Positions 10,812 to 59,204 of a stretch of 64,000 bases of DNA are shown here, in pieces (positions within the stretch are counted from its first letter, which is position 1; each line of letters opens with the position of its first letter). Below the pieces are notes generated by a model. It worked only from the letters and a program-made list of their open reading frames with translations. It was not told the DNA's origin and searched no databases. Source of the DNA: a virus (taxonomy: Duplodnaviria; Heunggongvirae; Uroviricota; Caudoviricetes); the IMG/VR virus record IMGVR_UViG_3300032163_000007, positions 21,587 through 85,586 of that record; one strand, 5' to 3'. Position numbers and translations under genes: made by a program.

Positions 10812-11936
10812 ATGTCGAAAGAGTATTTAATAGCAAATGATCTAGGATATCTTCTAGATCTCATATGGAAGATCCCTCTGCTTACAAAGGCACAGGAAAG
10901 AGAGCTAACAGCTCTTGCAAAAGAAGTGAACAACCCGGATAAAGAAATTGCAAAGAAGGCCAAAGAGGCCAAGGATTTATTCGTTGTCAGTAACATGCGT
11001 CTAGTAATTAACATTGCCAGGCACTACTACCGTAAGGGCATAGAGTTAACGGATCTAGTACAAGAAGGAACATTTGGCTTAATAAGAGCTATAGAGAAGT
11101 TTGATCCCGATAGAGGCTTTAGGTTTAGTACGTACGCAACATACTGGATAGCTACGTTTATCTCGAAGGCTGCACAGAAGTCTACAGCACTATACATTCC
11201 TAATCACGCCAATCAAAAGCTTAACAGGTACTGCAAAATATCAAATGAGCTTATGGAGGCAGCCATAGACACTGACCTAGATAGATATACAATGATTAAA
11301 GAGCGTATGGCAGAGACTACCCTACAACTACCTATAGGAACTACTCTGAAGTCCTTCTTAAATAAATATCCTAATCGTTACCAGTACAACAAGACCTCCT
11401 GTATCTTAACGATAAAAGATGCAATGGAATCAGCAGATATTACTGATCTCCTAGACATGTTTCCTGATCGGTACGACGAGGCAAATCCCGACCAGCTACT
11501 AGAAAATCCTACAAGAGTTTTAATTGCAAAAGCAGTGCAGAGATCTCAGGGTGGAGACAGAGACTTTGAGCAGAGTGAGGAACTCTACAGAATAACACAG
11601 ACATTCTTTAGCTTAGAGGATAGTGTGGGTGAAAGCAACTTTACATTTGGCGATATTATCGTTGAAGAAGAATCCGCTGGAATGGAAGAAAAGACTCAGC
11701 TTCGAGAGGATGTAGAGATCGGAATGAAAGAAGCTCTTAATGACAAAGAGTTCTTTGTTCTGAAAGCTAGATATGGACTATTTGATAGTGACATTCTTGA
11801 GCTCGAAAAGATATCAGAAGTATTGGGAATCACAAAAGAGCGTATTCGTCAAATAGAGAGCACAGCAGCTAAGAAGCTTAGAGCATATTTTAAAGAGACG
11901 GAGTACGCATTACATTACGGAGGTAGGCATGTATAA
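10812..11936 (+). CDS. sigma-70 family RNA polymerase sigma factor, with a long insertion between regions 2 and 4
   Basis: Region 2 'RLVINIARHYYRKGIELTDLVQEGTFGLIRAIEKFDPDRGFRFSTYATYWI'; region 4.2 HTH 'ISEVLGITKERIRQIESTAAKKLR'. Confidence 0.8.
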   Translation: MSKEYLIANDLGYLLDLIWKIPLLTKAQERELTALAKEVNNPDKEIAKKAKEAKDLFVVSNMRLVINIARHYYRKGIELTDLVQEGTFGLIRAIEKFDPDRGFRFSTYATYWIATFISKAAQKSTALYIPNHANQKLNRYCKISNELMEAAIDTDLDRYTMIKERMAETTLQLPIGTTLKSFLNKYPNRYQYNKTSCILTIKDAMESADITDLLDMFPDRYDEANPDQLLENPTRVLIAKAVQRSQGGDRDFEQSEELYRITQTFFSLEDSVGESNFTFGDIIVEEESAGMEEKTQLREDVEIGMKEALNDKEFFVLKARYGLFDSDILELEKISEVLGITKERIRQIESTAAKKLRAYFKETEYALHYGGRHV

Positions 11937-12195
11937 ACCAAAACCAGCAACTTATGAGACCATCAAGGATTTTTCTACTAATCAGATAGTGTATGCCTGC
12001 TGTCAGCAAGCCCAGCACAAGGACCGAGTTACAGGGGTAATTTGGGATGTTGCTCTACAGAAGTCAGCTAAGGCTTATCCCAGAGAATCCAGCTATCAAG
12101 CGGCTAAGATTCTATTAAAGGAAAAAGGGCTAGATAGCGCGAAAAAGGTGGGTTTTTTGGTTGACTACTTCTGGCAAGTTACGAAGCATAATTAA
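11929..12195 (+). CDS. hypothetical protein
   Basis: Listed ORF; overlapping start. Confidence 0.35.
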   Translation: MYKPKPATYETIKDFSTNQIVYACCQQAQHKDRVTGVIWDVALQKSAKAYPRESSYQAAKILLKEKGLDSAKKVGFLVDYFWQVTKHN

Positions 12196-13192: not shown

Positions 13193-16100
13193 ATGATAAC
13201 AGAGAGAATCAAGTCTTTGGTAAGTACAAAAGGTATTAAGAAGGTAGTAAAGCGTAATGGTGAAACTGTTCCATTTAAGAAGGATAAAGTAGCAGAAGCC
13301 ATAAAGAAGGCAGCAGCATCTGTCAGTATTGATGATGTAGCAGCACTTAAGCTAGTCACTGAAGAGATCCTTGCAGAGATAAATAAATGGAATAGTAAAA
13401 CCATCCCAGCAGTAGAAGAGATTCAAGACTTAATAGAAAACACTTTAATTAAAAATAATCATGCGGAGATAGCTAAAGCATATATCCTTTACAGGGAGCA
13501 ACGTAGCAATATCCGAGACAAGGAAAAGCTGTTGCTAGACATCAGCAAGACTATGGATGGATACCTGGACCAGAGCGATTGGCGTGTTAACGAGAACAGC
13601 AACATCAATTATTCTCTGGGTGGGTTGATCCTACACAATGCAGGTACAATCACAGCCAATTATTGGCTCAATAATGTTTATCCCAAAGATGTAGCAGATG
13701 CCCATCGTAATGGTGACTATCACATCCATGACATGTCCGTGTTCGGTCCTTATTGTGCCGGCTGGTCGCTCAGACAACTCCTAGAAGAGGGTTTCGGTGG
13801 TGTATTGAACAAGATCACATCTAAACCAGCAAAACACCTTTCTACGCTTGTTTCACAAATGGTTAACTTCTTGGGTACACTTCAGAATGAATGGGCTGGT
13901 GCTCAGGCGTTCTCAAGCTTCGACACCTACTTGGCTCCTTTTGTCAGAGTAGATAATCTCACATACAAAGACGTTAAGCAACAAATTCAGAGCTTTATTT
14001 TTGGAATCAATACTCCGTCACGCTGGGGCAGCCAAGCCCCCTTTACCAACATCACGTTGGATTGGGTGGTACCTACGGACTTAAAAGACTACCCAGTAAT
14101 CATTGGTGGTAAGTCGCAAGACACTACGTACGGTGATTATCAGGTAGAGATGGATATTGTTAACAAGGCTTTCCTAGAGGTCATGCTTGAGGGTGATGCT
14201 GAAGGCAGAGGTTTTGCGTACCCAATTCCAACGTATAACATTACGAAGGACTTTAATTGGGATCATCCTAACTCTGACCTGCTATTTGGTATGGCAGCTA
14301 AGTATGGTACTCCCTATTTCCAGAACTTTATCAATAGCACACTGAACCCAGTAGATGTGCGTTCAATGTGCCCTCTAGCGGCTACGGAAAAGGTACTTAT
14401 TAAGTCTTCCCGGGGTAGAGGCTTGGAGTATGTGTCCATAGGCAACATTGTGAACGCCCAAGTTTTTGACCCTAATAGAGTTTATGAAGTCTACTCCGAT
14501 GGTAAGTTTGTGGAGGGTAGATTCCAGAGGTATGACGACCAGCAAATGCTGAGGGTTACTTTAGAAAACAACCACCAAATCACCATGAGTAAGAGTCACT
14601 TAAACTTTGTTAGGCTGTTTAAGGGGGAGGAAATAGTACTTGAGGGGGCGCATCTGAAGGACTCCATGTATCTTCCCTATAGTTTGAACTCCCTTAAGGG
14701 AGAGGGTGGAGACTTTGCTCTAGGACTTCTCGTAGGAGCTTTCGCCGGAGATGGGTCTCTCTGTGAAAGAGAGGGTGGATGGAGTATAAATCTATCCCTT
14801 AACAAAAATCAGAAAACTACTTTAGCACTAGAGTTAGAGAATATCTGCAAGAACGTCTTCGGCGCCTTAGTCAGTTACACAGAGTCCGAGACCTCGGAGC
14901 TACTATCCATGAGAGTTAATTCCCAAGCAGTAGTAGGATTAGTAAGTGACTTTGTGGACAGCAAGGGCTTAGATAAGTCCTACAAGGCTCGCGTCTTTGG
15001 AATGAGTGAGGGGTTCCGTAGGGGAGTGCTAGATGGGCACACTAGAACTGATGGTAACTTCGACAGGGAGACCCGACGCATTTACTCATCGTCCCCAAAA
15101 ATGGTAGAGTGCCTAAATATGTTAGCATCCTCTTTGGGCACAGTGACCTCCGTGTACGAGCACGAGTTAAATAGGGAGTCGGGAGCTCTGAGTAATAATT
15201 CAAACTATTGTGTAACCTTCCCGGAGTACAAGAGGGATAGCTATGGGAATCGTTGGTTTAAGGCTGATAACAAGCTGTGGATGAAGATTAAGTATGTGGA
15301 GGAAGTTCAAGGAAATGTAGGGTACTGTCTCGAGGTACTTGATGACGAACCTATGTTTACAGTAGGCACTACAGGCATACTCACGCATAATTGTCGCCTT
15401 CAGCTGGACAAACGTGAACTACGTAATCGTGGTGGTGGTCTGTTTGGTGCTGATGAGATGACAGGCAGTATTGGTGTAGTCACTATTAACTTGGCTCGTA
15501 TTGGGTACCTGGCTAAGACCAGAAAAGAGTTCCTTTCTAGGTTAGATCACCTAATCGACTTGGCTAGTGAGTCTCTAACAATTAAGCGTAAAGTCTGTAA
15601 CCAGCTTATGGAGGGCGGTTTATACCCCTATACAAAGCGTTACTTGGGTAGCTTTAAGAACCACTTTAACACAATTGGAATCAACGGTATGAACGAAGCC
15701 CTTCTCAATTTTATGGAGAAGGACATCTCTGATCCCAAGGCCAAACAGTTTGCTAAGGATATTCTTAATCATATGAGAACTCGTATGCAAGATCTCCAAG
15801 AAGAGACAGGAGACCTCTATAACTTAGAAGCTACTCCAGCCGAGTCTACTTCTTACAGGCTAGCAAAGATCGACAAAGACAAATATCCAAATATCATATG
15901 TTCTGGTACATGCGACCCATACTATACAAATAGTACGCAGCTACCAGTTGGGCACACCCCAGATATATTTGAGGCGTTAGATCATCAAGATGACCTACAG
16001 ACTCTTTATACTGGTGGTACGGTTCTGCATGGCTTTTTAGGAGAGAGACTGCAGGGCTCGGAAGCGTGTAAGAAGTTAGTGAAGAAAATTCTTTACAACT

Positions 16101-16261
16101 ATCACATTCCGTATCTTACTATATCTCCAACCTTCTCTATCTGTCCTACTCACGGATACTTAGCAGGTGAGCACTTCTTTTGCCCGAAGTGTGAGCAAGA
16201 AGAACGAGTATTGTTGCAAGGCCAGATTAGCAACCTAGAAACAGAACTGGAAAAAATGTAG
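13193..16261 (+). CDS. nrdD: anaerobic ribonucleoside-triphosphate reductase NrdD (class III) with an N-terminal ATP-cone and an in-frame intein; C-terminal zinc site; the glycyl-radical domain is absent from this ORF
   Basis: ATP-cone 'VKRNGETVPFKKDKVAEAIKKA'; NrdD-like core; C-terminal 'CPTHG...CPKCE'; an intein interrupts it (see mobile_element); no RVxGY motif in this ORF. Confidence 0.8.
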   Translation: MITERIKSLVSTKGIKKVVKRNGETVPFKKDKVAEAIKKAAASVSIDDVAALKLVTEEILAEINKWNSKTIPAVEEIQDLIENTLIKNNHAEIAKAYILYREQRSNIRDKEKLLLDISKTMDGYLDQSDWRVNENSNINYSLGGLILHNAGTITANYWLNNVYPKDVADAHRNGDYHIHDMSVFGPYCAGWSLRQLLEEGFGGVLNKITSKPAKHLSTLVSQMVNFLGTLQNEWAGAQAFSSFDTYLAPFVRVDNLTYKDVKQQIQSFIFGINTPSRWGSQAPFTNITLDWVVPTDLKDYPVIIGGKSQDTTYGDYQVEMDIVNKAFLEVMLEGDAEGRGFAYPIPTYNITKDFNWDHPNSDLLFGMAAKYGTPYFQNFINSTLNPVDVRSMCPLAATEKVLIKSSRGRGLEYVSIGNIVNAQVFDPNRVYEVYSDGKFVEGRFQRYDDQQMLRVTLENNHQITMSKSHLNFVRLFKGEEIVLEGAHLKDSMYLPYSLNSLKGEGGDFALGLLVGAFAGDGSLCEREGGWSINLSLNKNQKTTLALELENICKNVFGALVSYTESETSELLSMRVNSQAVVGLVSDFVDSKGLDKSYKARVFGMSEGFRRGVLDGHTRTDGNFDRETRRIYSSSPKMVECLNMLASSLGTVTSVYEHELNRESGALSNNSNYCVTFPEYKRDSYGNRWFKADNKLWMKIKYVEEVQGNVGYCLEVLDDEPMFTVGTTGILTHNCRLQLDKRELRNRGGGLFGADEMTGSIGVVTINLARIGYLAKTRKEFLSRLDHLIDLASESLTIKRKVCNQLMEGGLYPYTKRYLGSFKNHFNTIGINGMNEALLNFMEKDISDPKAKQFAKDILNHMRTRMQDLQEETGDLYNLEATPAESTSYRLAKIDKDKYPNIICSGTCDPYYTNSTQLPVGHTPDIFEALDHQDDLQTLYTGGTVLHGFLGERLQGSEACKKLVKKILYNYHIPYLTISPTFSICPTHGYLAGEHFFCPKCEQEERVLLQGQISNLETELEKM
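14369..15391 (+). mobile_element. intein (341 aa) with a LAGLIDADG homing-endonuclease domain inside NrdD
   Basis: Starts with Cys after '...VRSM'; ends '...GILTHN' followed by the extein Cys ('CRLQLD'); LAGLIDADG motifs 'LLVGAFAGDGS' and 'VLDGHTRTDGNF'. Confidence 0.75.
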
Positions 16262-16271: not shown

Positions 16272-16466
16272 ATGGGAAAGACAAAAGAACAGTTATTAGA
16301 AGAGATTAAAGTAATGAAAGATAAGCTAGCTAGTGTAAAAGGTAAGCCGGCAGAAGTTTACACACGGATTGTAGGATACTACAGAGCAGTTCAGAACTGG
16401 AATCTTGGTAAAAAGTCAGAGTATGCTGACAGAGTAGAATTCGCAGAGAAGCCCGAAGCGGCCTAA
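16272..16466 (+). CDS. NrdD C-terminal glycyl-radical domain encoded as a separate 64-aa ORF
   Basis: 'TRIVGYYRAVQNWNLGKKSEYADRV' matches the NrdD glycyl-radical motif (RVxGY...WNxGKxxE...R); own RBS GGAGG 6 nt upstream; different frame from nrdD, whose stop is 10 nt upstream. Confidence 0.7.
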   Translation: MGKTKEQLLEEIKVMKDKLASVKGKPAEVYTRIVGYYRAVQNWNLGKKSEYADRVEFAEKPEAA

Positions 16467-17950: not shown

Positions 17951-17971
17951 GCCATAATTAAGGATAGAGAC

Positions 17972-21432: not shown

Positions 21433-21523
21433 GGAAGGCCAACCCGATAGTTGGCGACGGGAGCTGTCTTGAAAACAGCCGAGCCGAAAGGCCTTAGAGG
21501 ATCGTCCCCTCTGCCTTCCGCCA
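21433..21523 (+). tRNA. tRNA-Ser(TGA)-like, type II, divergent D-arm and T-loop (possibly pseudo or atypical)
   Basis: 7-bp acceptor GGAAGGC/GCCTTCC + G + CCA; anticodon arm GCTGT-CTTGAAA-ACAGC; long variable arm with GAAA tetraloop; T-stem AGAGG/CCTCT with loop ATCGTCC; layout parallels E. coli tRNA-Ser(UGA). Confidence 0.5.
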
Positions 21524-21558: not shown

Positions 21559-21571
21559 CCATAATTAAGAT
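21559..21571 (+). promoter_or_regulatory. HEG-associated -10-like element CCATAATTAAGAT directly abutting the ATG
   Basis: Shared TAATTAAG core immediately upstream of all six homing-endonuclease starts. Confidence 0.45.
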
Positions 21572-22150
21572 ATGGAAATAGAAAGATTTTGTGATGTATG
21601 TGGTAAAGGCTTAGTTGGGAAGCAGCGGCACTACTGCTCCACTAGGTGTAAGCGTCTAAGCCACAAGAGCCTAGGGGGTACTGCATACTGCGTAATATGT
21701 GGAGAAAGTTTTCTAACACATGGAAGGTTAAGTCAGAAAACCTGCTCTACTACGTGTGCTGGCCTGTACAGGTCGAGAGCTCTAGATATTGAGAAGGTTG
21801 ATCGGGAGTACCGTCAGCGTAGTAAAGACCATTACGCAAAGTACAAGCAGGCGTATATTGACAGAAATAATAAGCAGTACGCAGAAGGCAAGGCATTTAT
21901 TAATGAGGAAAAGGTTCGTAGGGGTGGATGCTGCGTCTGTGGAGAGCTGGAACCTGTAGTACTTGACTTACACCACCTTGACCCAAAGCAGAAAGAAAAT
22001 AACTTAGCCCAGATGATCAGATACAGAAAAGAGCGAATTTTAGATGAGATGGCAAAAGGAGTTATTATATGCTCCAATTGTCACAAGAAGCATCATGCAG
22101 GACTTTTAGAGATTCCTTCCGATGCTGATAGAGGGCAGGTAGTCTCGTAA
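21572..22150 (+). CDS. HNH homing endonuclease with N-terminal zinc-ribbon repeats
   Basis: Repeated CxxCG...F and CSTxC motifs; HNH core 'DLHHLDP...N...CSNCHKKHH'; lies inside the tRNA array. Confidence 0.7.
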   Translation: MEIERFCDVCGKGLVGKQRHYCSTRCKRLSHKSLGGTAYCVICGESFLTHGRLSQKTCSTTCAGLYRSRALDIEKVDREYRQRSKDHYAKYKQAYIDRNNKQYAEGKAFINEEKVRRGGCCVCGELEPVVLDLHHLDPKQKENNLAQMIRYRKERILDEMAKGVIICSNCHKKHHAGLLEIPSDADRGQVVS

Positions 22151-22218
22151 GGGGCGAGGGTTGGCTGTAAACCAATTGCGGAAACGCCTTTATGGTTCAA
22201 ATCCATAACTGCCCACCA
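22133..22218 (+). tRNA. tRNA-Tyr(GTA)-like, type II; its 5' end overlaps the last 18 nt of the HNH gene
   Basis: Acceptor GGGCAGG/ACTGCCC (6 bp) + A + CCA; anticodon arm GTTGG-CTGTAAA-CCAAT; variable arm with GCG-GAAA-CGC; canonical T-arm TATGG-TTCAAAT-CCATA; 3 nt rather than 2 between acceptor and D-stem. Confidence 0.5.
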
Positions 22219-23648: not shown

Positions 23649-23723
23649 AGGCTTATAGTGAAATGGTTATCACACTTCCCTTTGACGGAAGTATTATTGG
23701 TTCGAATCCAGTTAGGCCTGCCA
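23649..23723 (+). tRNA. tRNA-Gln(TTG)
   Basis: Acceptor AGGCTTA/TAGGCCT; D-arm GTGA-AATGGTTA-TCAC; anticodon arm CTTCC-CTTTGAC-GGAAG; T-arm ATTGG-TTCGAAT-CCAGT; CCA encoded. Confidence 0.75.
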
Positions 23724-23758: not shown

Positions 23759-23771
23759 CTATAATTAAACT
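23759..23771 (+). promoter_or_regulatory. HEG-associated element CTATAATTAAACT abutting the ATG
   Basis: Shared TATAATTAA core. Confidence 0.45.
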
Positions 23772-24419
23772 ATGGAAAAGAAAAAAGAAGATCGATTTTG
23801 CAGCATATGTGGTAGACGCTTAGCTTGGAATCAAGTCAGCTGTTGCTCTAACACGTGTAGACTTGCACTCAAAGAGTCTAAGAAGACTATAAAGTTTTGC
23901 AAGCAGTGTGGAAAGCAGCTGGGACCTAAAGACTATCAGAAGCAGTTCTGTAATGGATCTTGTGCTGCTACGTACAATAACTTAGCAAAGGGTAGAGACA
24001 GAATGGTAGAGGCGGTATGTCCTATATGTGGTAAGAAGTTTACTACTCTACCACATAAGCGTAGAGTTAGTTGTAGCTCTGAGTGCGCCCTTGTGCTTAG
24101 GAGCCACAGAGTAGCGAGCCTTATAAAGAGTGGAGAGTTCACATACCAAGGAGGTGGTAGTGTCCCCCAAAGTGTTAGGCGATATATTATGCAGAAGTAT
24201 GGGAGTAAGTGTACTAAGTGCGGTTGGCATGAGGTCAATCCTAAAACAGGAAAGACACCGCTACATGTAGACCACATAGATGGTAACTCCCAGAATTATA
24301 AAGAGGAGAATCTAGATCTGCTATGCCCTAATTGCCACAGCCTGACCCCTACCTATGGTAGTCTTAATAAGGGTAACGGCAGGGATAGTATAAAGAAGCG
24401 GATTAAGGGTTTAGTATAG
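23772..24419 (+). CDS. HNH homing endonuclease with zinc-ribbon repeats
   Basis: Five CxxCG/CSxxC repeats; HNH core 'LHVDHIDGNSQNYKEENLDLLCPNCH'. Confidence 0.7.
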   Translation: MEKKKEDRFCSICGRRLAWNQVSCCSNTCRLALKESKKTIKFCKQCGKQLGPKDYQKQFCNGSCAATYNNLAKGRDRMVEAVCPICGKKFTTLPHKRRVSCSSECALVLRSHRVASLIKSGEFTYQGGGSVPQSVRRYIMQKYGSKCTKCGWHEVNPKTGKTPLHVDHIDGNSQNYKEENLDLLCPNCHSLTPTYGSLNKGNGRDSIKKRIKGLV

Positions 24420-24484
24420 CAGTAGTACGCCGATCTCCAAAATCGGAGGTAGGAGGGCAGCACTTCTAATCCTTGCCATATAAC

Positions 24485-25497: not shown

Positions 25498-25910
25498 TGA
25501 CAGAGGTAGAAAAATGGTTAGCAGCTTGGGGAGATAGAACAGTTATAGCTTTTGATTTTGACGGAGTTATTGCAACCTATGAAGGTTGGCTAGGTGCAGA
25601 TGTGTTTGGGAAGCCTATTAAACAAACAATTGACTTTATGAACAGTCTACAGTTTAGGTCAGACTATAAGTTCTATGTTACAATCTTTACATCTAGGCAA
25701 GCTACTCCTGCTATCAAGAAATGGTTAGCAGATAACAACGTACACTACGATTCTATTAATGATAATAGTCACAATCCTCCAGACAGTTCTCATAAACCAT
25801 TCTATCATGTATTCATCGATGACAGAGCCATTGGTTACCGGGGTCAGCACATCTCTGATGTATCCAACGAGATGCATTGTATAATTAAGGGGATCTACGG
25901 ACATAAGTAG
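25476..25910 (+). CDS. HAD-superfamily hydrolase (nucleotidase-like)
   Basis: HAD motif I 'IAFDFDGVI'; C-terminal 'FIDDRA'. Confidence 0.5.
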   Translation: MAKDGSIMTEVEKWLAAWGDRTVIAFDFDGVIATYEGWLGADVFGKPIKQTIDFMNSLQFRSDYKFYVTIFTSRQATPAIKKWLADNNVHYDSINDNSHNPPDSSHKPFYHVFIDDRAIGYRGQHISDVSNEMHCIIKGIYGHK

Positions 25911-30022: not shown

Positions 30023-30321
30023 GTAACAAAGCCACCTATGAGGAGTTCAACATTAGGAAGTTTGGAGAGCCTTTTGTTGAGCACGTCAAGAAGCGCATGT
30101 ATCTCGAATTGGGTAAATTCTTAACTGGTAAGATTCCCATAGACGAGCGAAAGACTATTGATCCACGTGGCTTCGACGCCACAGAGTATTCAGTAAAAGC
30201 TATAGTTCTGAGTTGGGAGAAGTGGAAATACATCGAGGCGATGCTCAGGGGCATATCCATATCTGCGAATCAATATGAGACGGCGCACGAAATTATTAGA
30301 ATGACGAAAGAGGAGTTATAA
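30013..30321 (+). CDS. hypothetical protein
   Basis: Listed ORF. Confidence 0.35.
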   Translation: MQIGNKATYEEFNIRKFGEPFVEHVKKRMYLELGKFLTGKIPIDERKTIDPRGFDATEYSVKAIVLSWEKWKYIEAMLRGISISANQYETAHEIIRMTKEEL

Positions 30322-31562
30322 TGGCTGATATACTAATAGGTTTGCAGTTTGGTGACGAGGGTAAGGGTAAGATCACAGATATACTATCCAAAGACGTCGA
30401 TACGGTCATACGCTTTCAGGGTGGGGCCAATGCTGGACATACCATTGTAGTAGATGGCAAGGAGTACAAACTTCACATGGTTCCAAGTGGTATCATCCAG
30501 GGCAAGCAGTGCCTCATTGGAAATGGCTGCGTAGTGGATTTTGACCAGGTAGAAAAAGAGTTTGCCATGCTAACTGCTGCAGGCCATGACATCTCCCTAA
30601 TTAAGATCAGTAAACTAGCACACGTAGTTGTGCCAGAGTACAAGAAATTGGACTCCCAACAAGAGGAAGGCCGCACAAATAAAATAGGCACAACTCAAAG
30701 AGGTATTGGACCCACATATGAGGCTAAAATCGCTCGTCGTGGTATTCAAGTAGGAGAATGTTATGAGCCCTTCATTACTATGGACCGACTCAGAGCCACT
30801 CTTAGTGGGGTTTATTTAGATGAGGAAATTAGAGACATCGCCTATAGGCTCAGAGCGCAGACTGACAAACTTCAGAGTCACTTCGTTGATGGTATTGAGT
30901 TTGTACAGGCTCTATTAGAATCTAATCAGAGAATTCTCTTAGAGGGGGCTCAAGGAACTCTTCTTGACGTAGACTTTGGTAGTTATCCGTACGTCACATC
31001 ATCCTCAACTACTGCAGGCGGAGCCTGTACTGGCTCTGGAATTAGCCCTCTTCACATTGAAAATATCTGGGGAGTATTTAAGGCCTATGTGACTAGAGTT
31101 GGAGAAGGTCCTTTTGACACTGAAGATTGCAAGTATGGGCAAGAGCGCCCTGACGGTACCTTTGAAGACGCTGAAGCATATATCAGAGAAAAAGGCCATG
31201 AGTTCGGTACAACCACGGGACGTCCTCGTCGTATAGGTTGGTTGGACCTCCCCGCTCTTAAGAGAGCCATAGCCATCAACGGCTGCAATAGATTGGCTAT
31301 GATGAAGTTAGATGTCTTATCTGGACTAGATCTAATTAAGGTTTGCTACGATTATCTCGACAACCGCATCTACACTGACGAATGGACTCCGATGTATGAA
31401 GAGTTTGAAGGCTGGACAGAGGACATCAGTGGAATCACTAACTACTTTGAGTTACCCCTAAATGCTCAAAAACTTATAGTGTATATCGAGAATGAGATAG
31501 GTAGATCATTAGATATAATTAGTACAAGCAATGATAGGAGCAAGGTGATCAATCTTGACTAG
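30321..31562 (+). CDS. adenylosuccinate synthetase family protein (PurA homolog; candidate PurZ)
   Basis: 'GLQFGDEGKGKITD' and 'RFQGGANAGHT' are PurA P-loop and His motifs; full-length (413 aa). Confidence 0.8.
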   Translation: MADILIGLQFGDEGKGKITDILSKDVDTVIRFQGGANAGHTIVVDGKEYKLHMVPSGIIQGKQCLIGNGCVVDFDQVEKEFAMLTAAGHDISLIKISKLAHVVVPEYKKLDSQQEEGRTNKIGTTQRGIGPTYEAKIARRGIQVGECYEPFITMDRLRATLSGVYLDEEIRDIAYRLRAQTDKLQSHFVDGIEFVQALLESNQRILLEGAQGTLLDVDFGSYPYVTSSSTTAGGACTGSGISPLHIENIWGVFKAYVTRVGEGPFDTEDCKYGQERPDGTFEDAEAYIREKGHEFGTTTGRPRRIGWLDLPALKRAIAINGCNRLAMMKLDVLSGLDLIKVCYDYLDNRIYTDEWTPMYEEFEGWTEDISGITNYFELPLNAQKLIVYIENEIGRSLDIISTSNDRSKVINLD

Positions 31563-34051: not shown

Positions 34052-34555
34052 ATGATCATAAGAAAAAGTTTTAAGTTAGAGATGGGTCATAGAGTAGTAG
34101 GTTCCTATACAACGGGATGCCAAAGCAATCACGGACATAGTGCCGTAGTGGAGCTGTTTTTAGAGGCTAAGACATTGGATCACACAGGAATGATTATTGA
34201 TTTTACTGAGGTTAAAGATCTTCTTGGAGACTTTTTCAACCAGTTCGATCACCGCACACTAGTATGGGACCAAGACGTTGAGTATTTGGAAGCTCTGGAG
34301 AAGCTAGGTTTTGCTCTCATGATAGTGCCTTATAACAGTACTGCAGAGAACATCAGTAAGCACATGTACCAGTTTGTTAGAGAAGCCCTTAAGAACCGCG
34401 TTAGAGTGGCAAGTGTGCGCTACCACGAAACTGTCACGGGTTATGCTGAATACTTTGTGGAAGACTACGACAGAGACGCCATGAACAACAACCTGTTTGA
34501 TCTCAGTCATGTGTTCTTGTCAGAAGCTACATGCATTAAGGAGTACCAACGATGA
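34052..34555 (+). CDS. queD: 6-carboxy-5,6,7,8-tetrahydropterin synthase QueD (PTPS family)
   Basis: 'EMGHRVVGSYTTGCQSNHGHS' (H..C..HGH zinc/catalytic motif); 'TGMIIDFTEVKDL'. Confidence 0.75.
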   Translation: MIIRKSFKLEMGHRVVGSYTTGCQSNHGHSAVVELFLEAKTLDHTGMIIDFTEVKDLLGDFFNQFDHRTLVWDQDVEYLEALEKLGFALMIVPYNSTAENISKHMYQFVREALKNRVRVASVRYHETVTGYAEYFVEDYDRDAMNNNLFDLSHVFLSEATCIKEYQR

Positions 34556-35220
34556 AAATAAATACAATATACCCAGCAATCGAAGGAGAGGGAGTCCGAG
34601 TAGGCACTCCTCAGCTATTCATCCGTACACAAGGATGTAGTATTGGATGTAAGAATTGTGACACTGTGGGATCTTGGAATCCTAACACAGGCACAGAAAT
34701 GTCAGTGAAAGAAATCTTTCAAAAGGTCATTGATAGTGGTCTTGACTCAATTAGCATCACCGGAGGCAACCCCCTAGAACAGGATCTCTACGACCTAGTG
34801 GGATTACTTCACCGAAGAAATTTTACAGTTAATATCGAGATCACTGGCCAAGACAATGACGAAGAGGTTCTTGACTTAGTAGACTTTATTAGTTGTGACA
34901 TCAAGACTCCGTCCACTGGGGTTACAGCTAATCTAGATATTATCGACGACATCTTAAAAAGCTATGGCCACTGCACACAGATCAAGTGCGTATGTGCTGA
35001 CCAAGCTGACTTAGACTTCATTATCGATTGTTACAACCGGTTCAAAGATAGACTTGATTACCATATGGTTATCACGCCTTGTTGGACAGAGCGCGCAAGT
35101 GCTGCTGATGTTGAGTTTATTGATCATATCATGAAAACTGTTATGGATAACAACTACCACATGCGAGTCATTGTACAACAGCATAAGCTACTCTTCGGAA
35201 GTAAACGCGGCGACGTATGA
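34552..35220 (+). CDS. queE: 7-carboxy-7-deazaguanine synthase QueE (radical SAM)
   Basis: 'LFIRTQGCSIGCKNCDT' matches the QueE CxxxCxxC-D motif; 'ITGGNPL'. Confidence 0.75.
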   Translation: MKINTIYPAIEGEGVRVGTPQLFIRTQGCSIGCKNCDTVGSWNPNTGTEMSVKEIFQKVIDSGLDSISITGGNPLEQDLYDLVGLLHRRNFTVNIEITGQDNDEEVLDLVDFISCDIKTPSTGVTANLDIIDDILKSYGHCTQIKCVCADQADLDFIIDCYNRFKDRLDYHMVITPCWTERASAADVEFIDHIMKTVMDNNYHMRVIVQQHKLLFGSKRGDV

Positions 35221-35357
35221 TTGAGCGTTTATTAAAGCAACTACCACTAAGCGTCAGGAGAAAGATATATGAGATCCTTCGCGAGGAGTTTGAGTGGACC
35301 AGAGAAAAGATTGATGCAGCAATAGACAAGATTATAGAGGAGAACCAACCAAAATGA
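35217..35357 (+). CDS. small hypothetical ORF (46 aa), overlaps the queE stop and the PRTase start
   Basis: Found by eye between listed ORFs. Confidence 0.25.
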   Translation: MIERLLKQLPLSVRRKIYEILREEFEWTREKIDAAIDKIIEENQPK

Positions 35358-35782
35358 ATGTTATTACTTGGAAGCAGTATTTAAAAGATATTGATAAATT
35401 GGCAAGTAAGATTACTGAGAAGTTTGATTACATCTGGGGCATTCCCAGAGGTGGGCTAATTCCTGCTGTAATCCTAGCTCACAAGCTTGATATTCCTCTC
35501 GTGTCTGATAGAAAGATGTTAAGCATGAGGAATGATTATAAGCTTCTAATTGTGGATGACCTCTACGAGACAGGTAAAGCTCTATGTGAGGCAATAGCAA
35601 TGCTACCTTCAAAGGTTAGCTGGAGATCTGCTGTAGTTTATACCAAAGCGGATAAAGAGATCGCACACTATTCTGGTCCTCTGATGGATAAAGATGCTTG
35701 GATTGTGTTTCCCTACGAAAAAGTAGAAAACGCTGAAACAGATAGTGTGGAATATCAATTAAGTCGAAAGGATAAAGTATGA
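35354..35782 (+). CDS. type I purine phosphoribosyltransferase (Gpt/XGPRT-like)
   Basis: 'WGIPRGGLIPAVILAHKLDIPLV' and PRPP motif 'LLIVDDLYETGKAL'; 142 aa, the size of E. coli Gpt. Confidence 0.6.
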   Translation: MNVITWKQYLKDIDKLASKITEKFDYIWGIPRGGLIPAVILAHKLDIPLVSDRKMLSMRNDYKLLIVDDLYETGKALCEAIAMLPSKVSWRSAVVYTKADKEIAHYSGPLMDKDAWIVFPYEKVENAETDSVEYQLSRKDKV

Positions 35783-36066
35783 ACTATAAAGAGTGCGATA
35801 ACCTATTTTGGAAAAAGGTTCGTAAAGCCTCAGGCTTAAAGAATACGTATAGACTGAGTAAGGCTTGCAGACTAGCGTGTTATGAGATAGGTAAGCTTAT
35901 GTTAAAGGCTGCGGGTATGCCTATTAGTGTCTATAAGTCAGACCTAGCTGAGTGGCTAGTGTTGAAAGAGGATTATAGGGCGGCTGCTTTTGAGATGTTC
36001 GACACAGCTCAGTTCAAAAGCAAAATACAAGAGGTAACGTCGAGCTACCCAGAGGAGGGTAAGTAA
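35779..36066 (+). CDS. hypothetical protein
   Basis: Listed ORF. Confidence 0.35.
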   Translation: MNYKECDNLFWKKVRKASGLKNTYRLSKACRLACYEIGKLMLKAAGMPISVYKSDLAEWLVLKEDYRAAAFEMFDTAQFKSKIQEVTSSYPEEGK

Positions 36067-50003: not shown

Positions 50004-50016
50004 CTATAATTAAGAC
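50004..50016 (+). promoter_or_regulatory. HEG-associated element CTATAATTAAGAC abutting the ATG
   Basis: Shared TATAATTAAG core. Confidence 0.45.
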
Positions 50017-50808
50017 ATGATTAAAACTGAAGAAGAAAAAAGGAAGATCTACGCAAAGATCTCAGCAACAAAGAGAACTCCTGAGGGCAGGAAGAGACAC
50101 GCTGAGGCCTTAAGGAAGTCAAAGGAGAAGTGGAAACAGACAAGAGCTAGAAATAAAAAACCAGCACATAATAAGCTACCTGATACAGCGAAAGTCAAGA
50201 AAGTGTGCTTAAATTGTGGTAAAGAGATGCTTGTACTGCCCTGCTATTCAGAAACTAAGCACTTTTGCAGCAGACTATGTGTGACCCTATACAGAAAGGG
50301 AAGGGTTCATGAGGGGTATAACCTTAACAGCCATCATGACAAGGGTCGTTGGGGAATTATAGGTAGATACCAGGGCATTCTATTTAGAAGCCTTCTAGAG
50401 CTCTCGTTTATTACAAAAAAACTAAAAGAGAGCCAAAGCCTGCAGTCAGAACCCTTTTCTATAGTGCTTCAAGACTATTTACAGGAAGGAGAGTTTAAGG
50501 CCTTTAGTATAAAACCTAGTACTCTATACTTTCCCGATTTCCTCGTAGATGGTACTCTTCTTGTGGAGATTAAGCCTAGCAACCAGGTGAGCCAGAATCT
50601 TAATCAAGCAAAGACGTTAGCTGCACAAAGATACTGTGATACGAGAGGCCTCAAGTATCAGTTGCTCACTGAGCACGACATCGATCCTCAATACTACTAT
50701 AATACAATGAAGTTCGTATCCCAGAGTCCAAAGGAGGATTTCGTTTGGTATAAAAAGCCTACTAATAAGAGGCTAATCAAACAGTTTAACATGGAGGGAA
50801 AATTATGA
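50017..50808 (+). CDS. putative homing endonuclease: zinc-ribbon N-region + PD-(D/E)xK-like C-terminal domain
   Basis: 'CLNCGKEM...FCSRLCVTLY' matches the HEG repeat family; 'FPDFLVDG...LVEIKP' looks like a D..E.K nuclease core. Confidence 0.45.
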   Translation: MIKTEEEKRKIYAKISATKRTPEGRKRHAEALRKSKEKWKQTRARNKKPAHNKLPDTAKVKKVCLNCGKEMLVLPCYSETKHFCSRLCVTLYRKGRVHEGYNLNSHHDKGRWGIIGRYQGILFRSLLELSFITKKLKESQSLQSEPFSIVLQDYLQEGEFKAFSIKPSTLYFPDFLVDGTLLVEIKPSNQVSQNLNQAKTLAAQRYCDTRGLKYQLLTEHDIDPQYYYNTMKFVSQSPKEDFVWYKKPTNKRLIKQFNMEGKL

Positions 50809-53723: not shown

Positions 53724-54166
53724 TAGGATGTAAACAGTGTGGCCTCTGCTGCAAGGCAATTGCTCTGAGGTACTCTAAGAAGTATGTCAGAGATGTTGTC
53801 AGGACTTCAAAGCGAGCAGGAGACAAGAATACTGACGGGCTACTCATGCTCAATCACTGGAAGCGTATTCCAAGGCTTGAGGCTGAGGCTATTAACCCTG
53901 AGTATATTGGCACACACGAGGGTTACTACTTTTACAGGTGTAACAAGCTCAAAGACAATAAATGCAGTGATCACGGAGGAAAAACCAGAATTTGCAGTGG
54001 GTATCCGTTCTATGATGACTTTCCTGATCCCCTAGAGGTAAATGACAAACTCATGACGAGTAAGTGTGGCTTTTACATGACCCCAGAGAATACAGAGGAA
54101 TATGTAGAGCACCTGTTACTGTGCAAGCCCTTTGGCAAATGGATTCCACCCAACCAATTAACTTAA
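53720..54166 (+). CDS. YkgJ-family Cys-cluster protein (CxxCxxCC)
   Basis: 'CKQCGLCCK' plus C-terminal Cys/His. Confidence 0.45.
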   Translation: MIGCKQCGLCCKAIALRYSKKYVRDVVRTSKRAGDKNTDGLLMLNHWKRIPRLEAEAINPEYIGTHEGYYFYRCNKLKDNKCSDHGGKTRICSGYPFYDDFPDPLEVNDKLMTSKCGFYMTPENTEEYVEHLLLCKPFGKWIPPNQLT

Positions 54167-54210
54167 TGTATTTTTATACATTTCAATAGAAATAAATGAA
54201 GGAGAGACGT

Positions 54211-56430: not shown

Positions 56431-56679
56431 ATGAAGGTTATTGAACAAAGTGTAGAGATTATTGACTTGGGTGGAACACCCCTGGAAATTTACAAGAAGC
56501 TTGAGAACATCGGCAGGGTTTGCTATAAGTCAGAAGATAAAATCACAGATGAGACCCATGACAAGTTTCTCAGGGATGTCATAAGAAGAGGTCACGAGTC
56601 TGTACTTGAGCACCACAACATCACGTTGAGGTTTATCACGGACCGTGGTGTAACCCATGAAATTGTCATGCCCGCTTAA
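56431..56679 (+). pseudogene. thyX: thyX (FAD-dependent thymidylate synthase), N-terminal part; the gene is split by a frameshift
   Basis: 'RVCYKS...HESVLEHHNITLRFITDRGVTHEIV' matches the ThyX N-terminal half; stops 4 codons later. Confidence 0.6.
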
Positions 56680-57085: not shown

Positions 57086-57099
57086 GTAATAATTAAGAT
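57086..57099 (+). promoter_or_regulatory. HEG-associated element GTAATAATTAAGAT abutting the ATG
   Basis: Shared AATTAAGAT core. Confidence 0.45.
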
Positions 57100-58155
57100 A
57101 TGAAAAAGAGCATGGGATACACAGAAGACACAAAGATCCTTACAGAGGATGGTTGGAGGTGGGTTAAAGATCTGGAGAGTGGGTGCATGGTCCACACCCT
57201 CGACTATCAGGGGCAACTATGTGTAACTCCGGTTCAAAAAGTTATATGTGAGGAATACTCTGGAGAAGTTCTCCATTTGAAGTCTTCAAAGATAGACCTG
57301 GATATAGGGGCCCTCCAACCTCTCTTTGTGAGAACAGAGAATAAAAGTCCTTTACATGTGCCCGCTCAGGATGTAACTCATAAGCATATTTTTCTAAAGG
57401 GAGCTCAAATCCCTGAAATTATGGCTGAGCAGATTGTTGGGTTGCCGTCAGTGGTTGATGGCGGGTTCCTAAAAAGAGTTGTTGCAGAGAGATATCTAGA
57501 TACGAACCAGTTTCTACTTTTCTTAGGACTTTGGGTAACGGATGGGTCTATCCGATTAACCGGTAGAGCTGGAAATCAGGTTAGAATATCCCAAGTTAAA
57601 CCTTCCGTCAGAGCTGTGATAGATAAACTTCTAGCTGCCTTAGACTTTAAGTACTCTTATAGTTGCAAAAGCTACTACATGTACTCTAAACAACTTTTCT
57701 GCTTCCTTCGGGAGCAGTTCATAAAAAATAACGACCCTAAAAAAGGATATTACGTTAGTATCCCTTTATGGATAAAAAAGATGCACGCGTTACACTTAGA
57801 GCATTTAGTAAAGGGGTTAATGCTTGGAGATGGAAGATTAGAGCCTAACTGCGAGTACAGTGGGTACCTTACAACAGCTTCGGAGGCTCTAGCTGAAGAT
57901 TTCGCAGAGATAGCCTTAAAGATGGGAAGATGCGCAACAATCCGGAAGAAGGGAGTGGGTATGGTTCATAGTAAGCAGAAAGTTCCCTACTACTTTGTGT
58001 CTCTTCTTAAACCTATTACACACTACGCAAGGACTACGCAAGTCTTAAGCAAATTTTATAGTGGTCCTCTATACAGTATATTTCTAGATGGCCAGAAACC
58101 TGTATATATAATGCAAAAAGGTAAAACTTTATGGGGAGGTACAAATGGCGAATGA
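57100..58155 (+). CDS. free-standing LAGLIDADG homing endonuclease with an intein-like (Hint) N-terminal segment
   Basis: 'LFLGLWVTDGS' and 'LVKGLMLGDGRL' LAGLIDADG motifs; N-terminal 'DTKILTEDGWRWVKDL' resembles intein block A; no C-terminal HN splice junction. Confidence 0.6.
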   Translation: MKKSMGYTEDTKILTEDGWRWVKDLESGCMVHTLDYQGQLCVTPVQKVICEEYSGEVLHLKSSKIDLDIGALQPLFVRTENKSPLHVPAQDVTHKHIFLKGAQIPEIMAEQIVGLPSVVDGGFLKRVVAERYLDTNQFLLFLGLWVTDGSIRLTGRAGNQVRISQVKPSVRAVIDKLLAALDFKYSYSCKSYYMYSKQLFCFLREQFIKNNDPKKGYYVSIPLWIKKMHALHLEHLVKGLMLGDGRLEPNCEYSGYLTTASEALAEDFAEIALKMGRCATIRKKGVGMVHSKQKVPYYFVSLLKPITHYARTTQVLSKFYSGPLYSIFLDGQKPVYIMQKGKTLWGGTNGE

Positions 58156-58426: not shown

Positions 58427-58592
58427 TTGATTTGACAAAGATAGCTCTCCACAAAAGAGAGGATGCTCTAATTGAACGACTGGGTATAAAGAGAGACCTT
58501 CAAGGGACTCTTCACCAGGTAGACATTCTCGAGGCGATAATTAAGCGCATAGAGGCCTTAGAAAGAAAGGCGAAAATATAAGGAGATGCGCT

Positions 58593-59170: not shown

Positions 59171-59204
59171 ATTCACACCCAGAAAATTAAATGTAAGAAT
59201 TCTT

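What the first reader, a model, noticed from the sequence alone, without database searches (positions are those of the whole stretch)
21559..22150. All six free-standing homing-endonuclease genes share a TATAATTAAGAT element abutting the ATG, consistent with leaderless transcription
The motif is directly fused to the start codon with no Shine-Dalgarno. The copies are HE1 21559-21571 CCATAATTAAGAT, HE2 23759-23771 CTATAATTAAACT, HE3 39628-39642 ATATATAATTAGTAT, HE4 43290-43302 TTACAATTAAGTC, HE5 50004-50016 CTATAATTAAGAC, HE6 57086-57099 GTAATAATTAAGAT. The motif contains a -10-like TATAAT whose 3' end is 6 nt from the ATG. This would place the transcription start on the A of AUG, giving a leaderless mRNA. 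Four of the HEGs also share an N-terminal zinc-ribbon repeat, CxxCGK.F...FCSxxC..Y. This suggests a single HEG family, each copy travelling with its own minimal promoter cassette and carrying catalytic domains that differ between copies (HNH, LAGLIDADG, PD-(D/E)xK-like).
Basis: seen in the sequence. Interest (0 to 1): 0.7.

Follow-up and report, generated by a model that had tools for sequence, protein, structure and literature searches.

The report
Promoter-fused start codons on phage homing-endonuclease genes
In this large phage genome every homing-endonuclease gene, and no other gene, has a TATAAT-type promoter box exactly six bases before its ATG and no ribosome-binding site, which most likely means these selfish genes are expressed as leaderless mRNAs from their own minimal promoters.

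Summary
All six quoted strings sit at the quoted coordinates, and each is followed directly by ATG. A seventh endonuclease gene, outside the window and on the opposite strand, has the same layout (TATAAT-N6-ATG).

In the 80.6 kb I could read, 7 of 7 endonuclease genes carry [T/C/A]A[T/C]AAT at -12..-7. None of about 107 other called genes does. About 0.2-0.3 would be expected by chance, and the hypergeometric P is 2e-11.

Positions A-11, A-9, A-8 and T-7 never vary, -1 is always a pyrimidine, and every start codon is ATG. No usable Shine-Dalgarno sequence, -35 box or RNA hairpin is present. This matches the published signature of leaderless genes.

- The core ATAATTAA is not endonuclease-exclusive. 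It also lies upstream of the portal gene, where it is conserved in relatives with about 50% identical portal proteins, and upstream of a few other genes. Only the fusion to ATG is exclusive.
- The genes are not one family. They carry HNH-type, TnsA-like and LAGLIDADG nuclease domains.
- The same 14-mer precedes unrelated genes in other phages.

No transcription start site is mapped, so leaderless expression remains an inference. I rate it a new variant of a known kind, of moderate interest.

The parts
21560..21571 (+). HE1 element CATAATTAAGAT: -10-like hexamer at -12..-7, then TAAGAT, abutting the ATG
   Evidence: It lies 48 nt after tRNA-Ser (21433-21523). The tool scan finds no -35 box.
21572..22150 (+). 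HE1, a free-standing HNH endonuclease gene (192 aa) with two N-terminal zinc-ribbon modules
   Evidence: PHROG 2255 'HNH endonuclease', E 9.5e-22. Zinc ribbons at residues 7 and 40. The last 14 nt, including the stop codon, overlap tRNA-Tyr 22137-22218. No close homologue among 5.8 billion proteins.
23760..23771 (+). HE2 element TATAATTAAACT abutting the ATG
   Evidence: It lies 48 nt after tRNA-Gln (23649-23723).
23772..24419 (+). HE2, an HNH endonuclease gene (215 aa) with three zinc-ribbon modules
   Evidence: Pfam HNH, E 1.1e-5; PHROG 1271, E 1.1e-27. Its 3' end overlaps a tRNA at 24405-24475.
39631..39642 (+). HE3 element TATAATTAGTAT abutting the ATG
39643..40497 (+). HE3, an endonuclease-VII/HNH-like gene (284 aa) with two CxxC...CxxC repeats
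   Evidence: PHROG 1035 'endonuclease VII', E 2.4e-13. Its 3' end overlaps the start of the RF-1-domain gene at 40484.
43291..43302 (+). HE4 element TACAATTAAGTC abutting the ATG
   Evidence: It lies 51 nt after tRNA-Met (43175-43251).
43303..43971 (+). HE4 (222 aa): homing-endonuclease-associated repeat plus one zinc ribbon; the catalytic domain was not established
   Evidence: Pfam HNH_repeat, E 1e-9; PHROG 559. tRNA-Asn starts 12 nt after its stop codon.
50005..50016 (+). HE5 element TATAATTAAGAC abutting the ATG
50017..50808 (+). HE5 (263 aa): zinc ribbon plus a TnsA-like PD-(D/E)xK nuclease domain
   Evidence: Pfam Tn7_TnsA-like_N, E 4e-9. Zinc ribbon at residue 64. Its stop codon overlaps the ATG of the SLT transglycosylase gene at 50805.
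57088..57099 (+). HE6 element AATAATTAAGAT abutting the ATG
   Evidence: It lies 23 nt after the stop codon of thyX.
57100..58155 (+). HE6, a LAGLIDADG-type endonuclease gene (351 aa) with no zinc ribbon
   Evidence: Pfam LAGLIDADG_3, E 4.8e-8. No intron model matches the region even at E<=1. Its 3' end overlaps the next gene's start at 58145.
17953..17961 (+). The same core (CATAATTAA) upstream of the portal gene, which is not an endonuclease gene; its ATG is at 17972
   Evidence: TATAATTAA is also present 40-46 nt upstream of the portal start in relatives L003/L004 and L005, whose portal proteins are 50-55% identical.
12187..12195 (+). Core CATAATTAA with its hexamer ending 18 nt before the ATG at 12211 (69-aa ORF, no Shine-Dalgarno sequence)
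25880..25888 (+). Core TATAATTAA with its hexamer ending 33 nt before the ATG at 25919 (the leader would contain a Shine-Dalgarno sequence)
58536..58544 (+). Core GATAATTAA about 50 nt before the ATG at 58593 (the leader would contain a Shine-Dalgarno sequence)
10812..11936 (+). Phage-encoded RpoD/RpoS-like sigma factor, a candidate reader of TATAAT-type -10 boxes (inference only)
   Evidence: Pfam Sigma70_r2, E 9e-18, and Sigma70_r4, E 1e-9. NCBIfam RpoD/SigA-family models, E 6e-52, below the curated cut-offs.

Best explanation
**What it is.** The 12-bp element is a minimal promoter made of a -10 box only, with consensus TATAAT-TAAGAY. It is placed so that RNA polymerase starts on the A of the ATG. 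The polymerase could carry the host primary sigma factor or the phage's own RpoD-like sigma factor (10812-11936).

**How it would work.**
1. Each endonuclease gene yields an mRNA that begins with 5'-AUG and is translated by the leaderless, Shine-Dalgarno-independent route.
2. The genes lack a Shine-Dalgarno sequence. Read-through transcripts from the long co-directional phage operons or tRNA arrays would therefore translate them poorly.
3. Endonuclease synthesis is thereby tied to firing of the gene's own weak promoter and kept low.
4. The TAA stops in two frames inside TAATTAA also shield the ORF from ribosomes arriving from upstream.

**Shown.** Exact geometry, exclusivity to endonuclease genes in this genome, absence of a Shine-Dalgarno sequence, a -35 box or a hairpin, and recurrence of the core at promoter-like positions.

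**Inferred.** The transcription start site, leaderless translation, which sigma factor acts, and the regulatory logic.
For: - **Register.** The hexamer sits at -12..-7 in 7 of 7 endonuclease genes, including one outside the window on the opposite strand. None of about 107 other genes has it.
- **Conserved positions.** A-11, A-9, A-8 and T-7 never vary. By established knowledge, A-11 and T-7 are the two bases that sigma region 2 flips out.
- **Start-site context.** Position -1 is a pyrimidine in 7 of 7 (P 0.003), +1 is A, and all starts are ATG.
- **Literature.** This is the published leaderless signature (PMC3160421; PMC12340547).
- **No alternative translation signal.** No usable Shine-Dalgarno sequence is present. 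RNA folding energy around the starts is unremarkable (z from -1.0 to +1.2).
- **The antisense seventh gene.** It cannot be expressed by read-through, and this element is the only sigma-70-like signal before its ATG.
- **The core at other genes.** ATAATTAA occurs 11 times on the + strand and never on the - strand. Ten of the 11 lie within 100 nt upstream of a gene start.
- **Conservation.** The core is kept upstream of the portal gene in two relatives with about 50% identical portal proteins, and coding constraint does not explain it.
- **Independent examples.** A distant HE3-family endonuclease gene in contigs of 53% G+C (L160-L162) has a complete promoter, TTGACT-17-TGgTATGGT, followed by 6 nt and ATG. 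One contig family has many ordinary genes with (TG)TATAAT-N6-ATG.
- **A candidate reader.** The phage encodes an RpoD-like sigma factor.
Against: - No transcription start site or expression data exist for this metagenomic phage.
- None of the six sites has a -35 box (at least 4 of 6 matches) or a TGn extended -10. A -10-only promoter would be weak without an activator.
- Conservation extends beyond the hexamer: TTAAG at -6..-2 in most copies. An ordinary sigma-70 -10 box does not explain that.
- The host is unknown, and most genes of this phage use a Shine-Dalgarno sequence, so efficient leaderless translation in that host is an assumption.
- Only 80.6 kb of the 171.9-kb contig could be examined.
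- Zinc-ribbon HNH homologues in 23 IMG/VR loci, in Enterococcus phage iF6 and in L034/L036 use ordinary Shine-Dalgarno sequences. The arrangement is therefore not a general property of these gene families.
Confidence: 0.55

Rival explanations
1. The element works on RNA, not as a promoter. The endonuclease ORFs would be translated from internal AUGs of read-through polycistronic or pre-tRNA transcripts by Shine-Dalgarno-independent initiation on an unstructured A/U-rich stretch. In this view TAATTAA serves mainly as a two-frame stop 'insulator'.
For: - Six of the seven genes are co-oriented with their neighbours, so read-through RNA must exist.
- The start regions are A/U-rich and unstructured.
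- In-frame TAA or TAG occupies -6..-4 in six of six window genes, and a second TAA lies in another frame.
- In AT-rich viral contigs the same 14-mer precedes many ordinary genes that lack a Shine-Dalgarno sequence.
Against: - A/U-richness would not require a fixed register or never-varying A-11 and T-7.
- The seventh gene lacks TTAAG and the in-frame stop, yet keeps TATAAT-N6-ATG.
- That gene is antisense and needs a promoter.
- The upstream elements are tRNAs or ORFs that end 23-86 nt earlier, so translational coupling is not available.
Confidence: 0.2
2. The element is a binding site for a regulator, or a cleavage site for an RNA-processing enzyme that trims precursors to leaderless mRNAs. 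An example of the first would be an operator for a repressor acting on the near-palindromic TAATTA, by analogy with I-TevI autorepression.
For: - Conservation extends past the hexamer (TAATTAAG), and TAATTA is a perfect 6-bp palindrome.
- T4 intron endonucleases bind operators that overlap their own promoters (PMC2988022).
- The phage carries an RNA repair and processing suite: RtcB, a Ro-like TROVE protein, RlaP and a CCA-adding enzyme.
Against: - Four different nuclease architectures could not share one autoregulatory operator.
- No candidate regulator was identified.
- The seventh gene lacks TAATTA.
- Processing cannot supply a transcript for the antisense gene.
Confidence: 0.12
3. Hitch-hiking or chance: the 12-mer is a relic of one ancestral cassette end, copied among the endonuclease genes by recombination, or an AT-rich gene-junction artefact without function.
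For: - Five of the seven genes share a zinc-ribbon module, which shows module shuffling.
- A 14-mer with stops in two frames is naturally enriched at gene junctions, as seen in IMG/VR.
Against: - The expected count is 0.2-0.3 and 7 are observed; hypergeometric P is 2e-11.
- Flanks of the 12-mer share no similarity.
- HE3 and HE6 lack the zinc ribbon but have the element.
- Position-specific conservation matches a -10 box.
- Only one further ORF-initial N6 site (the same gene, seen in both L036 and L037) turned up in 134 kb of control phage loci.
Confidence: 0.05

Closest known systems
TA-led (leaderless) genes: a -10 box TANNNT adjacent to the start codon, as in Deinococcus-Thermus and Actinobacteria and in a minority of genes in Firmicutes (PMC3160421; PMC12340547; PMC4007540)
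   Same: The hexamer's first base lies 12 bp upstream of the start codon. There is no Shine-Dalgarno sequence and no conserved -35 box. ATG is the start codon, and the spacing is strict.
   Different: In those organisms it is a genome-wide mode of expression. Here it is confined to one functional class, the mobile endonuclease genes, in a phage whose other genes mostly use a Shine-Dalgarno sequence. Conservation also extends 5 nt beyond the hexamer. No transcription start site is mapped here.
[quoted passage not shown]
   Same: The logic is the same. The endonuclease ORF is embedded in a longer transcription unit but is translatable only from transcripts that start at its own proximal promoter.
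   Different: The T4 genes have a consensus Shine-Dalgarno sequence about 8 nt upstream and a stable sequestering hairpin. Here there is neither. Discrimination would come from the presence or absence of a 5'-terminal AUG. Seven free-standing T4 endonuclease genes are promoter-less cassettes, whereas here all seven carry the element.
Phage lambda cI mRNA from the PRM promoter, the classical leaderless phage mRNA (own knowledge, not checked here)
   Same: A phage mRNA that starts at the A of AUG and is translated without a Shine-Dalgarno sequence.
   Different: It is a single regulatory gene with an activator-dependent promoter, not a class of mobile genes.
Homing-endonuclease genes inside phage tRNA gene clusters: the Enterococcus phage iF6 homologue examined here, and T4 segB and the T5 F-Tfl genes from my own knowledge
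   Same: HE1, HE2 and HE4 lie between tRNA genes. HE1 and HE2 overlap the 5' end of the next tRNA, as the iF6 homologue does.
   Different: The iF6 homologue (46% identical) has no TATAAT-N6-ATG element.

Membership tests
Leaderless (TA-led) gene architecture | A -10-like TANNNT whose first base is about 12 bp upstream of the start codon | tested here: met
   The hexamer is at -12..-7 in 7 of 7 genes. A-11 and T-7 never vary. T at -12 is present in 5 of 7 (C in HE1, A in HE6). The criterion comes from PMC3160421.
Leaderless (TA-led) gene architecture | No functional Shine-Dalgarno sequence between the -10 box and the start codon | tested here: met
   The only purine-rich runs are GAAGGA 14 nt upstream of HE1 and AAGGA 1 nt upstream of the seventh gene. 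Both are out of range.
Leaderless (TA-led) gene architecture | A primary 5' end of the mRNA at or within a few nt of the start codon | not testable with these tools
   Needs dRNA-seq, 5'-RACE or Cappable-seq on infected cells. The phage is known only from metagenome assemblies.
Leaderless (TA-led) gene architecture | Translation of the 5'-AUG mRNA in the host | not testable with these tools
   The host is unknown. All seven starts are ATG, the codon favoured for leaderless initiation in most bacteria (own knowledge).
Canonical sigma-70 promoter (-35 / 16-18 nt / -10) | A -35 hexamer with at least 4 of 6 matches at a spacing of 16-18 nt, or a TGn extended -10 | tested here: not met
   None of the six sites is reported by the consensus scan. 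By eye the best -35 candidate is 4 of 6 for HE6 and 3 of 6 or fewer for the rest. No TGn lies in register.
T4-type late promoter (TATAAATA read by gp55/gp33) | The octamer TATAAATA at -13..-6, and gp55/gp33-type factors | tested here: not met
   TATAATTA matches 7 of 8 bases but lies one base closer to the ATG. No gp55/gp33-type family appears in the Pfam listings for the 80 kb. The one sigma gene found is RpoD-like.
T4-paradigm endonuclease translational control (hairpin hiding the ribosome-binding site) | A Shine-Dalgarno sequence about 8 nt upstream, sequestered in a stable hairpin on long transcripts | tested here: not met
   No Shine-Dalgarno sequence. Folding of -60..+40 gives z-scores from -1.0 to +1.2.
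Free-standing homing-endonuclease gene | A recognisable homing-type nuclease domain | tested here: met
   HNH, endonuclease-VII-like, TnsA-like and LAGLIDADG hits. The catalytic domain of HE4 is unresolved.
Free-standing homing-endonuclease gene | Not inside an intron or intein; lies between intact genes | tested here: met
   Rfam finds no intron at the gathering score or at E<=1 around HE3-HE6. Flanking genes or tRNAs are complete. thyX upstream of HE6 covers its whole Pfam profile.
Free-standing homing-endonuclease gene | Demonstrated mobility, or presence/absence polymorphism | not testable with these tools
   The closest relatives have portal proteins only 50-55% identical and lack this region.

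The most novel reading that the evidence does not exclude
Mobile endonuclease genes of several unrelated nuclease folds have converged on, or exchange, a 12-bp self-contained 'plug-and-play' expression cassette. The cassette is a -10 box fused to the ATG, giving leaderless mRNA. It makes their expression independent of the insertion context and invisible on read-through transcripts. The cassette would recur on endonuclease genes in unrelated phages: L133 and L104 have the identical TATAATTAAGAT-ATG, and L160-162 have a full promoter followed by N6-ATG. It would then be a general, previously undescribed strategy for regulating homing endonucleases, distinct from the T4 hairpin paradigm.
Probability: 0.25. 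Interest if true: 0.7.

Novelty: new variant of a known kind. Interest (0 to 1): 0.5.

Why it matters
Homing endonucleases must be expressed at low, well-timed levels wherever they land. The only well-studied solution is that of the T-even phages: a proximal late promoter plus a hairpin that hides the ribosome-binding site.

If the arrangement here works as inferred, it is a simpler solution. One 12-bp element would supply both transcription and translation initiation, and would keep the gene silent on read-through RNA. That would explain how endonucleases of unrelated folds can all settle into tRNA arrays and operons of one phage without disturbing them.

It also gives annotators a concrete rule: TATAAT-N6-ATG with no Shine-Dalgarno sequence. 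And it provides a clean test case of leaderless translation in a phage that otherwise uses Shine-Dalgarno sequences.

Tried and rejected
1. **Close relatives of the phage, to test conservation.** megablast against 50,697 phage records found nothing. The portal scan of IMG/VR found no relatives. The best portal homologues among 5.8 billion proteins are 50-55% identical and sit on short contigs without the endonuclease genes. HE1 has no close homologue, and HE5 has none in the phage records. Presence/absence junctions therefore could not be compared.
2. **Introns.** Rfam shows only tRNAs, plus one sub-threshold Y-RNA-like hit. The genes are not intron-encoded.
3. **Sequestering hairpins of the T4 type.** None were found.
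4. **Canonical -35 boxes.** None were found.
5. **A Z-genome idea.** PHROGs labelled 30321-31562 as PurZ-like. I rejected this because the protein is far closer to cellular PurA (E 1e-93) than to PurZ (E 1e-14). The HD-domain protein at 60429-60902 resembles a small alarmone hydrolase, not DatZ.
6. **Is the 14-mer diagnostic of endonuclease genes across viruses?** No. Most are structural or replication genes and only 2 are endonuclease-VII-like. One further 93-aa ORF from the same hit set resembles the HNH region of HE1.
7. **Is the fusion a general property of these endonuclease families?** No. 23 HE2-family loci, phage iF6, L034, L036 and most HE3-family loci use Shine-Dalgarno sequences.
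8. **A position-weight matrix built from the six sites.** It does not find a clear excess of further sites on the + strand over the - strand (5 against 2 above 12 bits). Evidence that the core is a general promoter rests mainly on its position relative to gene starts and on conservation at the portal gene.
Full report
**Context**

The window is part of a 171,862-bp metagenomic contig (ENA ERZ27247924, k141_804020). It covers roughly positions 100,697-164,696. The contig is a large tailed-phage genome.
- All window genes are on the + strand.
- It encodes terminase, portal, gp32-like, RecA-like, SbcCD-like, NrdD and ThyX proteins, an RNA-repair gene set and more than 20 tRNAs.
- Known phages are only distantly related. 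The helicase is 36% identical to those of Bacillus SPO1-like phages, and megablast finds nothing.
- Using flanks of genes at the window edges, I could read 80.6 kb of the contig.

All six quoted strings sit at the quoted coordinates, each directly followed by ATG. The six ORFs are nuclease genes of several kinds.

| Gene | ORF | Type |
|---|---|---|
| HE1 | 21572-22150 | HNH |
| HE2 | 23772-24419 | HNH |
| HE3 | 39643-40497 | endonuclease-VII/HNH-like |
| HE4 | 43303-43971 | homing-endonuclease-associated repeat, catalytic domain unclear |
| HE5 | 50017-50808 | TnsA-like PD-(D/E)xK |
| HE6 | 57100-58155 | LAGLIDADG |

They are free-standing. Rfam finds no intron at the gathering score or at E<=1. 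The neighbours are complete genes or tRNAs.

The start codons are unambiguous, because an in-frame TAA or TAG lies at -6..-4 in all six. Most other genes have AGGAG 7-9 nt upstream: 71 of 113 called genes by a crude rule, and many of the rest are overlap-coupled. The six have no usable Shine-Dalgarno sequence.

**An out-of-sample seventh case**

A BLAST of the six proteins against all ORFs of the 80.6 kb found a paralogue of HE2, 46% identical over 130 aa. It lies about 2.7 kb beyond the window end and is the only minus-strand gene. Its first ATG is preceded by ctcTATAATaaggacATG, which is TATAAT-N6-ATG again.

I then searched both strands for [ACT]A[TC]AAT, 5-8 nt, a start codon and an ORF of at least 40 codons. 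That gave 11 hits. Seven were the endonuclease genes, all with exactly 6 nt and ATG. The other four were internal or spurious.

The expected number of gene starts with such a hexamer at -12..-7 is 0.2-0.3 of 114. The probability that the seven bearers are exactly the seven endonuclease genes is 2.4e-11. Positions A-11, A-9, A-8 and T-7 never vary. Position -1 is a pyrimidine in 7 of 7 (P 0.003), and +1 is A.

In 134 kb of unrelated phage loci fetched earlier, the same ORF-initial N6 arrangement turned up only once: the same gene, seen in both L036 and L037.

**What the element most likely is**

The layout is the published signature of leaderless genes: TANNNT with its first T about 12 bp before the start codon, and no Shine-Dalgarno sequence (PMC3160421). 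The box was shown experimentally to act as a classical -10 region with a strict spacing requirement in Deinococcus (PMC12340547).

A start on the seventh base after the hexamer, a purine preceded by a pyrimidine, is what RNA polymerase prefers (established knowledge). The antisense seventh gene cannot be transcribed by read-through, so it must have its own promoter, and this is the only candidate.

Folding of -60..+40 shows nothing beyond shuffled controls. The T4 solution of a Shine-Dalgarno sequence hidden in a hairpin (PMC2988022) therefore does not apply.

My best reading is a promoter made of a -10 box only, which yields 5'-AUG mRNAs. Read-through RNAs would carry the ORF without any ribosome-binding signal and so would be translated poorly.

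The phage encodes an RpoD/RpoS-like sigma factor at 10812-11936 that could read TATAAT boxes. This is inference only.

1. *The core is not exclusive to endonuclease genes.*
 - ATAATTAA occurs 11 times on the + strand and never on the - strand.
 - Ten of the 11 lie within 100 nt upstream of a gene start. These include the portal gene (17954), 12211, 25919, 37919 and 58593.
 - TATAATTAA also lies 40-46 nt upstream of the portal start in the only relatives found, L003/L004 and L005, whose portal proteins are 50-55% identical. In L005 it is intergenic and in L004 it overlaps a stop codon, so coding constraint does not explain it.
 - In L003 the same 9-mer precedes two further genes.
 - The core therefore looks like a promoter element of this phage lineage. 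What is exclusive to endonuclease genes is its fusion to the ATG.
2. *No -35 box or extended -10 accompanies the six sites*.
3. *The genes are not one family.* Only a zinc-ribbon module is shared, by HE1, HE2, HE4, HE5 and the seventh gene.
4. *The 14-mer ATAATTAAGATATG is not diagnostic across the virosphere.*
 - I scanned 32 of these against PHROGs. They include portal, tail-fibre, protease, endolysin, SSB and RecJ genes, mostly in AT-rich contigs.
 - Part of this enrichment is trivial. A 14-mer with stops in two frames plus an ATG is favoured at gene junctions.

**Hints of generality**
- Two of those 32 proteins belong to the HE3 family (PHROG 1035).
- In L133 that gene sits in a structural-gene region whose genes have other upstream sequences, some with clear Shine-Dalgarno motifs. 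It carries the identical TATAATTAAGAT-ATG and overlaps the downstream start, as in the window.
- An independent scan with an HE3-family alignment found nine more loci. In three of them (L160-L162, 53% G+C) the endonuclease gene has a complete promoter, TTGACT-17-TGgTATGGT, followed by 6 nt and ATG.
- One contig family (L114, L099, L079) has many ordinary genes with (TG)TATAAT-N6-ATG. Leaderless-type starts therefore exist in phages generally.
- Against generality, 23 HE2-family loci, Enterococcus phage iF6, L034 and L036 use ordinary Shine-Dalgarno sequences.

**Rivals**
- *Internal, Shine-Dalgarno-independent initiation on read-through RNA, with TAATTAA acting as a stop 'insulator'.* This is the main alternative. 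It explains the A/U-richness and the stops. It does not explain the fixed register, the unvarying A-11 and T-7, or the antisense gene.
- *A regulator-binding or RNA-processing site.* This would explain conservation beyond the hexamer, but no candidate factor was found and the seventh gene lacks TAATTA.
- *Chance or hitch-hiking.* The statistics exclude this, and the flanks share no similarity.

**Limits**
- No transcription start site or expression data exist.
- The host is unknown.
- Only 47% of the contig was examined.
- No close relatives are available to define the cassette boundaries.

**Verdict**

This is a genuine, statistically solid association, and a leaderless reading of it is plausible. 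It is a new variant of known themes: leaderless TA-led genes, and promoter-coupled translation of homing endonucleases. In the library I searched, the only related paper speculates about leaderless initiation of a hidden HNH gene in mycobacteriophages.

Noticed in passing
about 1,991-2,656 nt beyond the window end (L007:12844-13509, minus strand): A seventh endonuclease gene, an HE2 paralogue with HNH plus zinc ribbon. It is the only antisense gene in the 80.6 kb. Its first ATG is preceded by TATAAT-aaggac. The gene caller placed its start at an upstream TTG.
   Followed up: yes
window 20955, 25072, 26943, 32680, 44233, 47360, 52238 (+ strand); also about 4.3 kb upstream of the window: A second, longer motif that looks like a promoter: TTAAAGTAAGTTTTTT-N5-TTATAGAT. 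AGTAAGTTTT occurs 7 times on the + strand and never on the - strand in the 80.6 kb. The motif often overlaps the upstream gene's stop codon. At 25103 (62-aa ORF), 47390 (UvsW-like helicase) and 52269 (CCA-adding enzyme), the ATG lies 6 nt after the TTATAGnn box and there is no Shine-Dalgarno sequence. At 32712 the register is the same, but TAGGAG could serve as one. Leaderless or near-leaderless starts may therefore not be limited to endonuclease genes in this phage.
   Followed up: partly
window ~54165-54190, ~59185-59225, ~60880-60920, ~62415-62450: A third motif that looks like a promoter: CTTAATGTAT-N13-17-TAGTA(A/T)TATACATC. It lies upstream of Shine-Dalgarno-led genes in the right-hand part of the window.
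   Followed up: no
window 22137-22150, 24405-24419, 40484-40497, 50805-50808, 58145-58155: The 3' ends of the endonuclease ORFs overlap what follows. HE1 and HE2 run 14-15 nt into the next tRNA. RNase P cleavage there would remove their stop codons. HE3, HE5 and HE6 contain the Shine-Dalgarno sequence and start of the next gene. The iF6 homologue overlaps tRNA-Thr in the same way (L002:2996-3010). This may be a retention or down-regulation device.
   Followed up: partly
window 41039-41152 (+), upstream of 41298-42755: A YrlA-like Y RNA match (41 bits, E 1e-6, below the Rfam gathering score of 69). It lies just upstream of a Ro60-like TROVE-domain gene, which suggests a phage-borne Ro/Y-RNA module.
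   Followed up: no
window 56431-56679 and 56657-57076: thyX is split into two overlapping ORFs that cover Pfam Thy1 positions 12-75 and 80-190. The cause could be a frameshift, whether an assembly error, a pseudogene or programmed. It lies directly upstream of HE6.
   Followed up: partly
window 13193-16261 and 16272-16466: The anaerobic ribonucleotide reductase NrdD is encoded as a 1022-aa ORF plus a separate 64-aa ORF, which has its own Shine-Dalgarno sequence and also hits the NRDD family.
   Followed up: no
window 30321-31562: PHROGs labels this protein PurZ-like (phrog_1211). By comparison with solved structures it is an ordinary PurA-type adenylosuccinate synthetase (E 1e-93, against 1e-14 for PurZ). 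There is no evidence of a diaminopurine genome.
   Followed up: yes
window 34052-37625: A cluster with PTPS (QueD-like), radical-SAM (QueE-like), a phosphoribosyltransferase-like protein and GTP cyclohydrolase I. This looks like a 7-deazaguanine (queuosine/archaeosine-type) precursor pathway, and it may point to modified DNA or tRNA.
   Followed up: no
window 10812-11936: A phage-encoded sigma factor whose region 2 is close to RpoD/RpoS (E 6e-52 to RpoD-family models, below their cut-offs). A long insertion separates it from region 4. The gene lies right after the large terminase gene.
   Followed up: partly
L114 (IMGVR_UViG_3300042520_000922), L099, L079; also L059, L078: Unrelated viral contigs (37-40% G+C) in which several ordinary genes start with (TG)TATAAT-N6-ATG. 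These phage genomes seem to use leaderless-type starts widely.
   Followed up: partly
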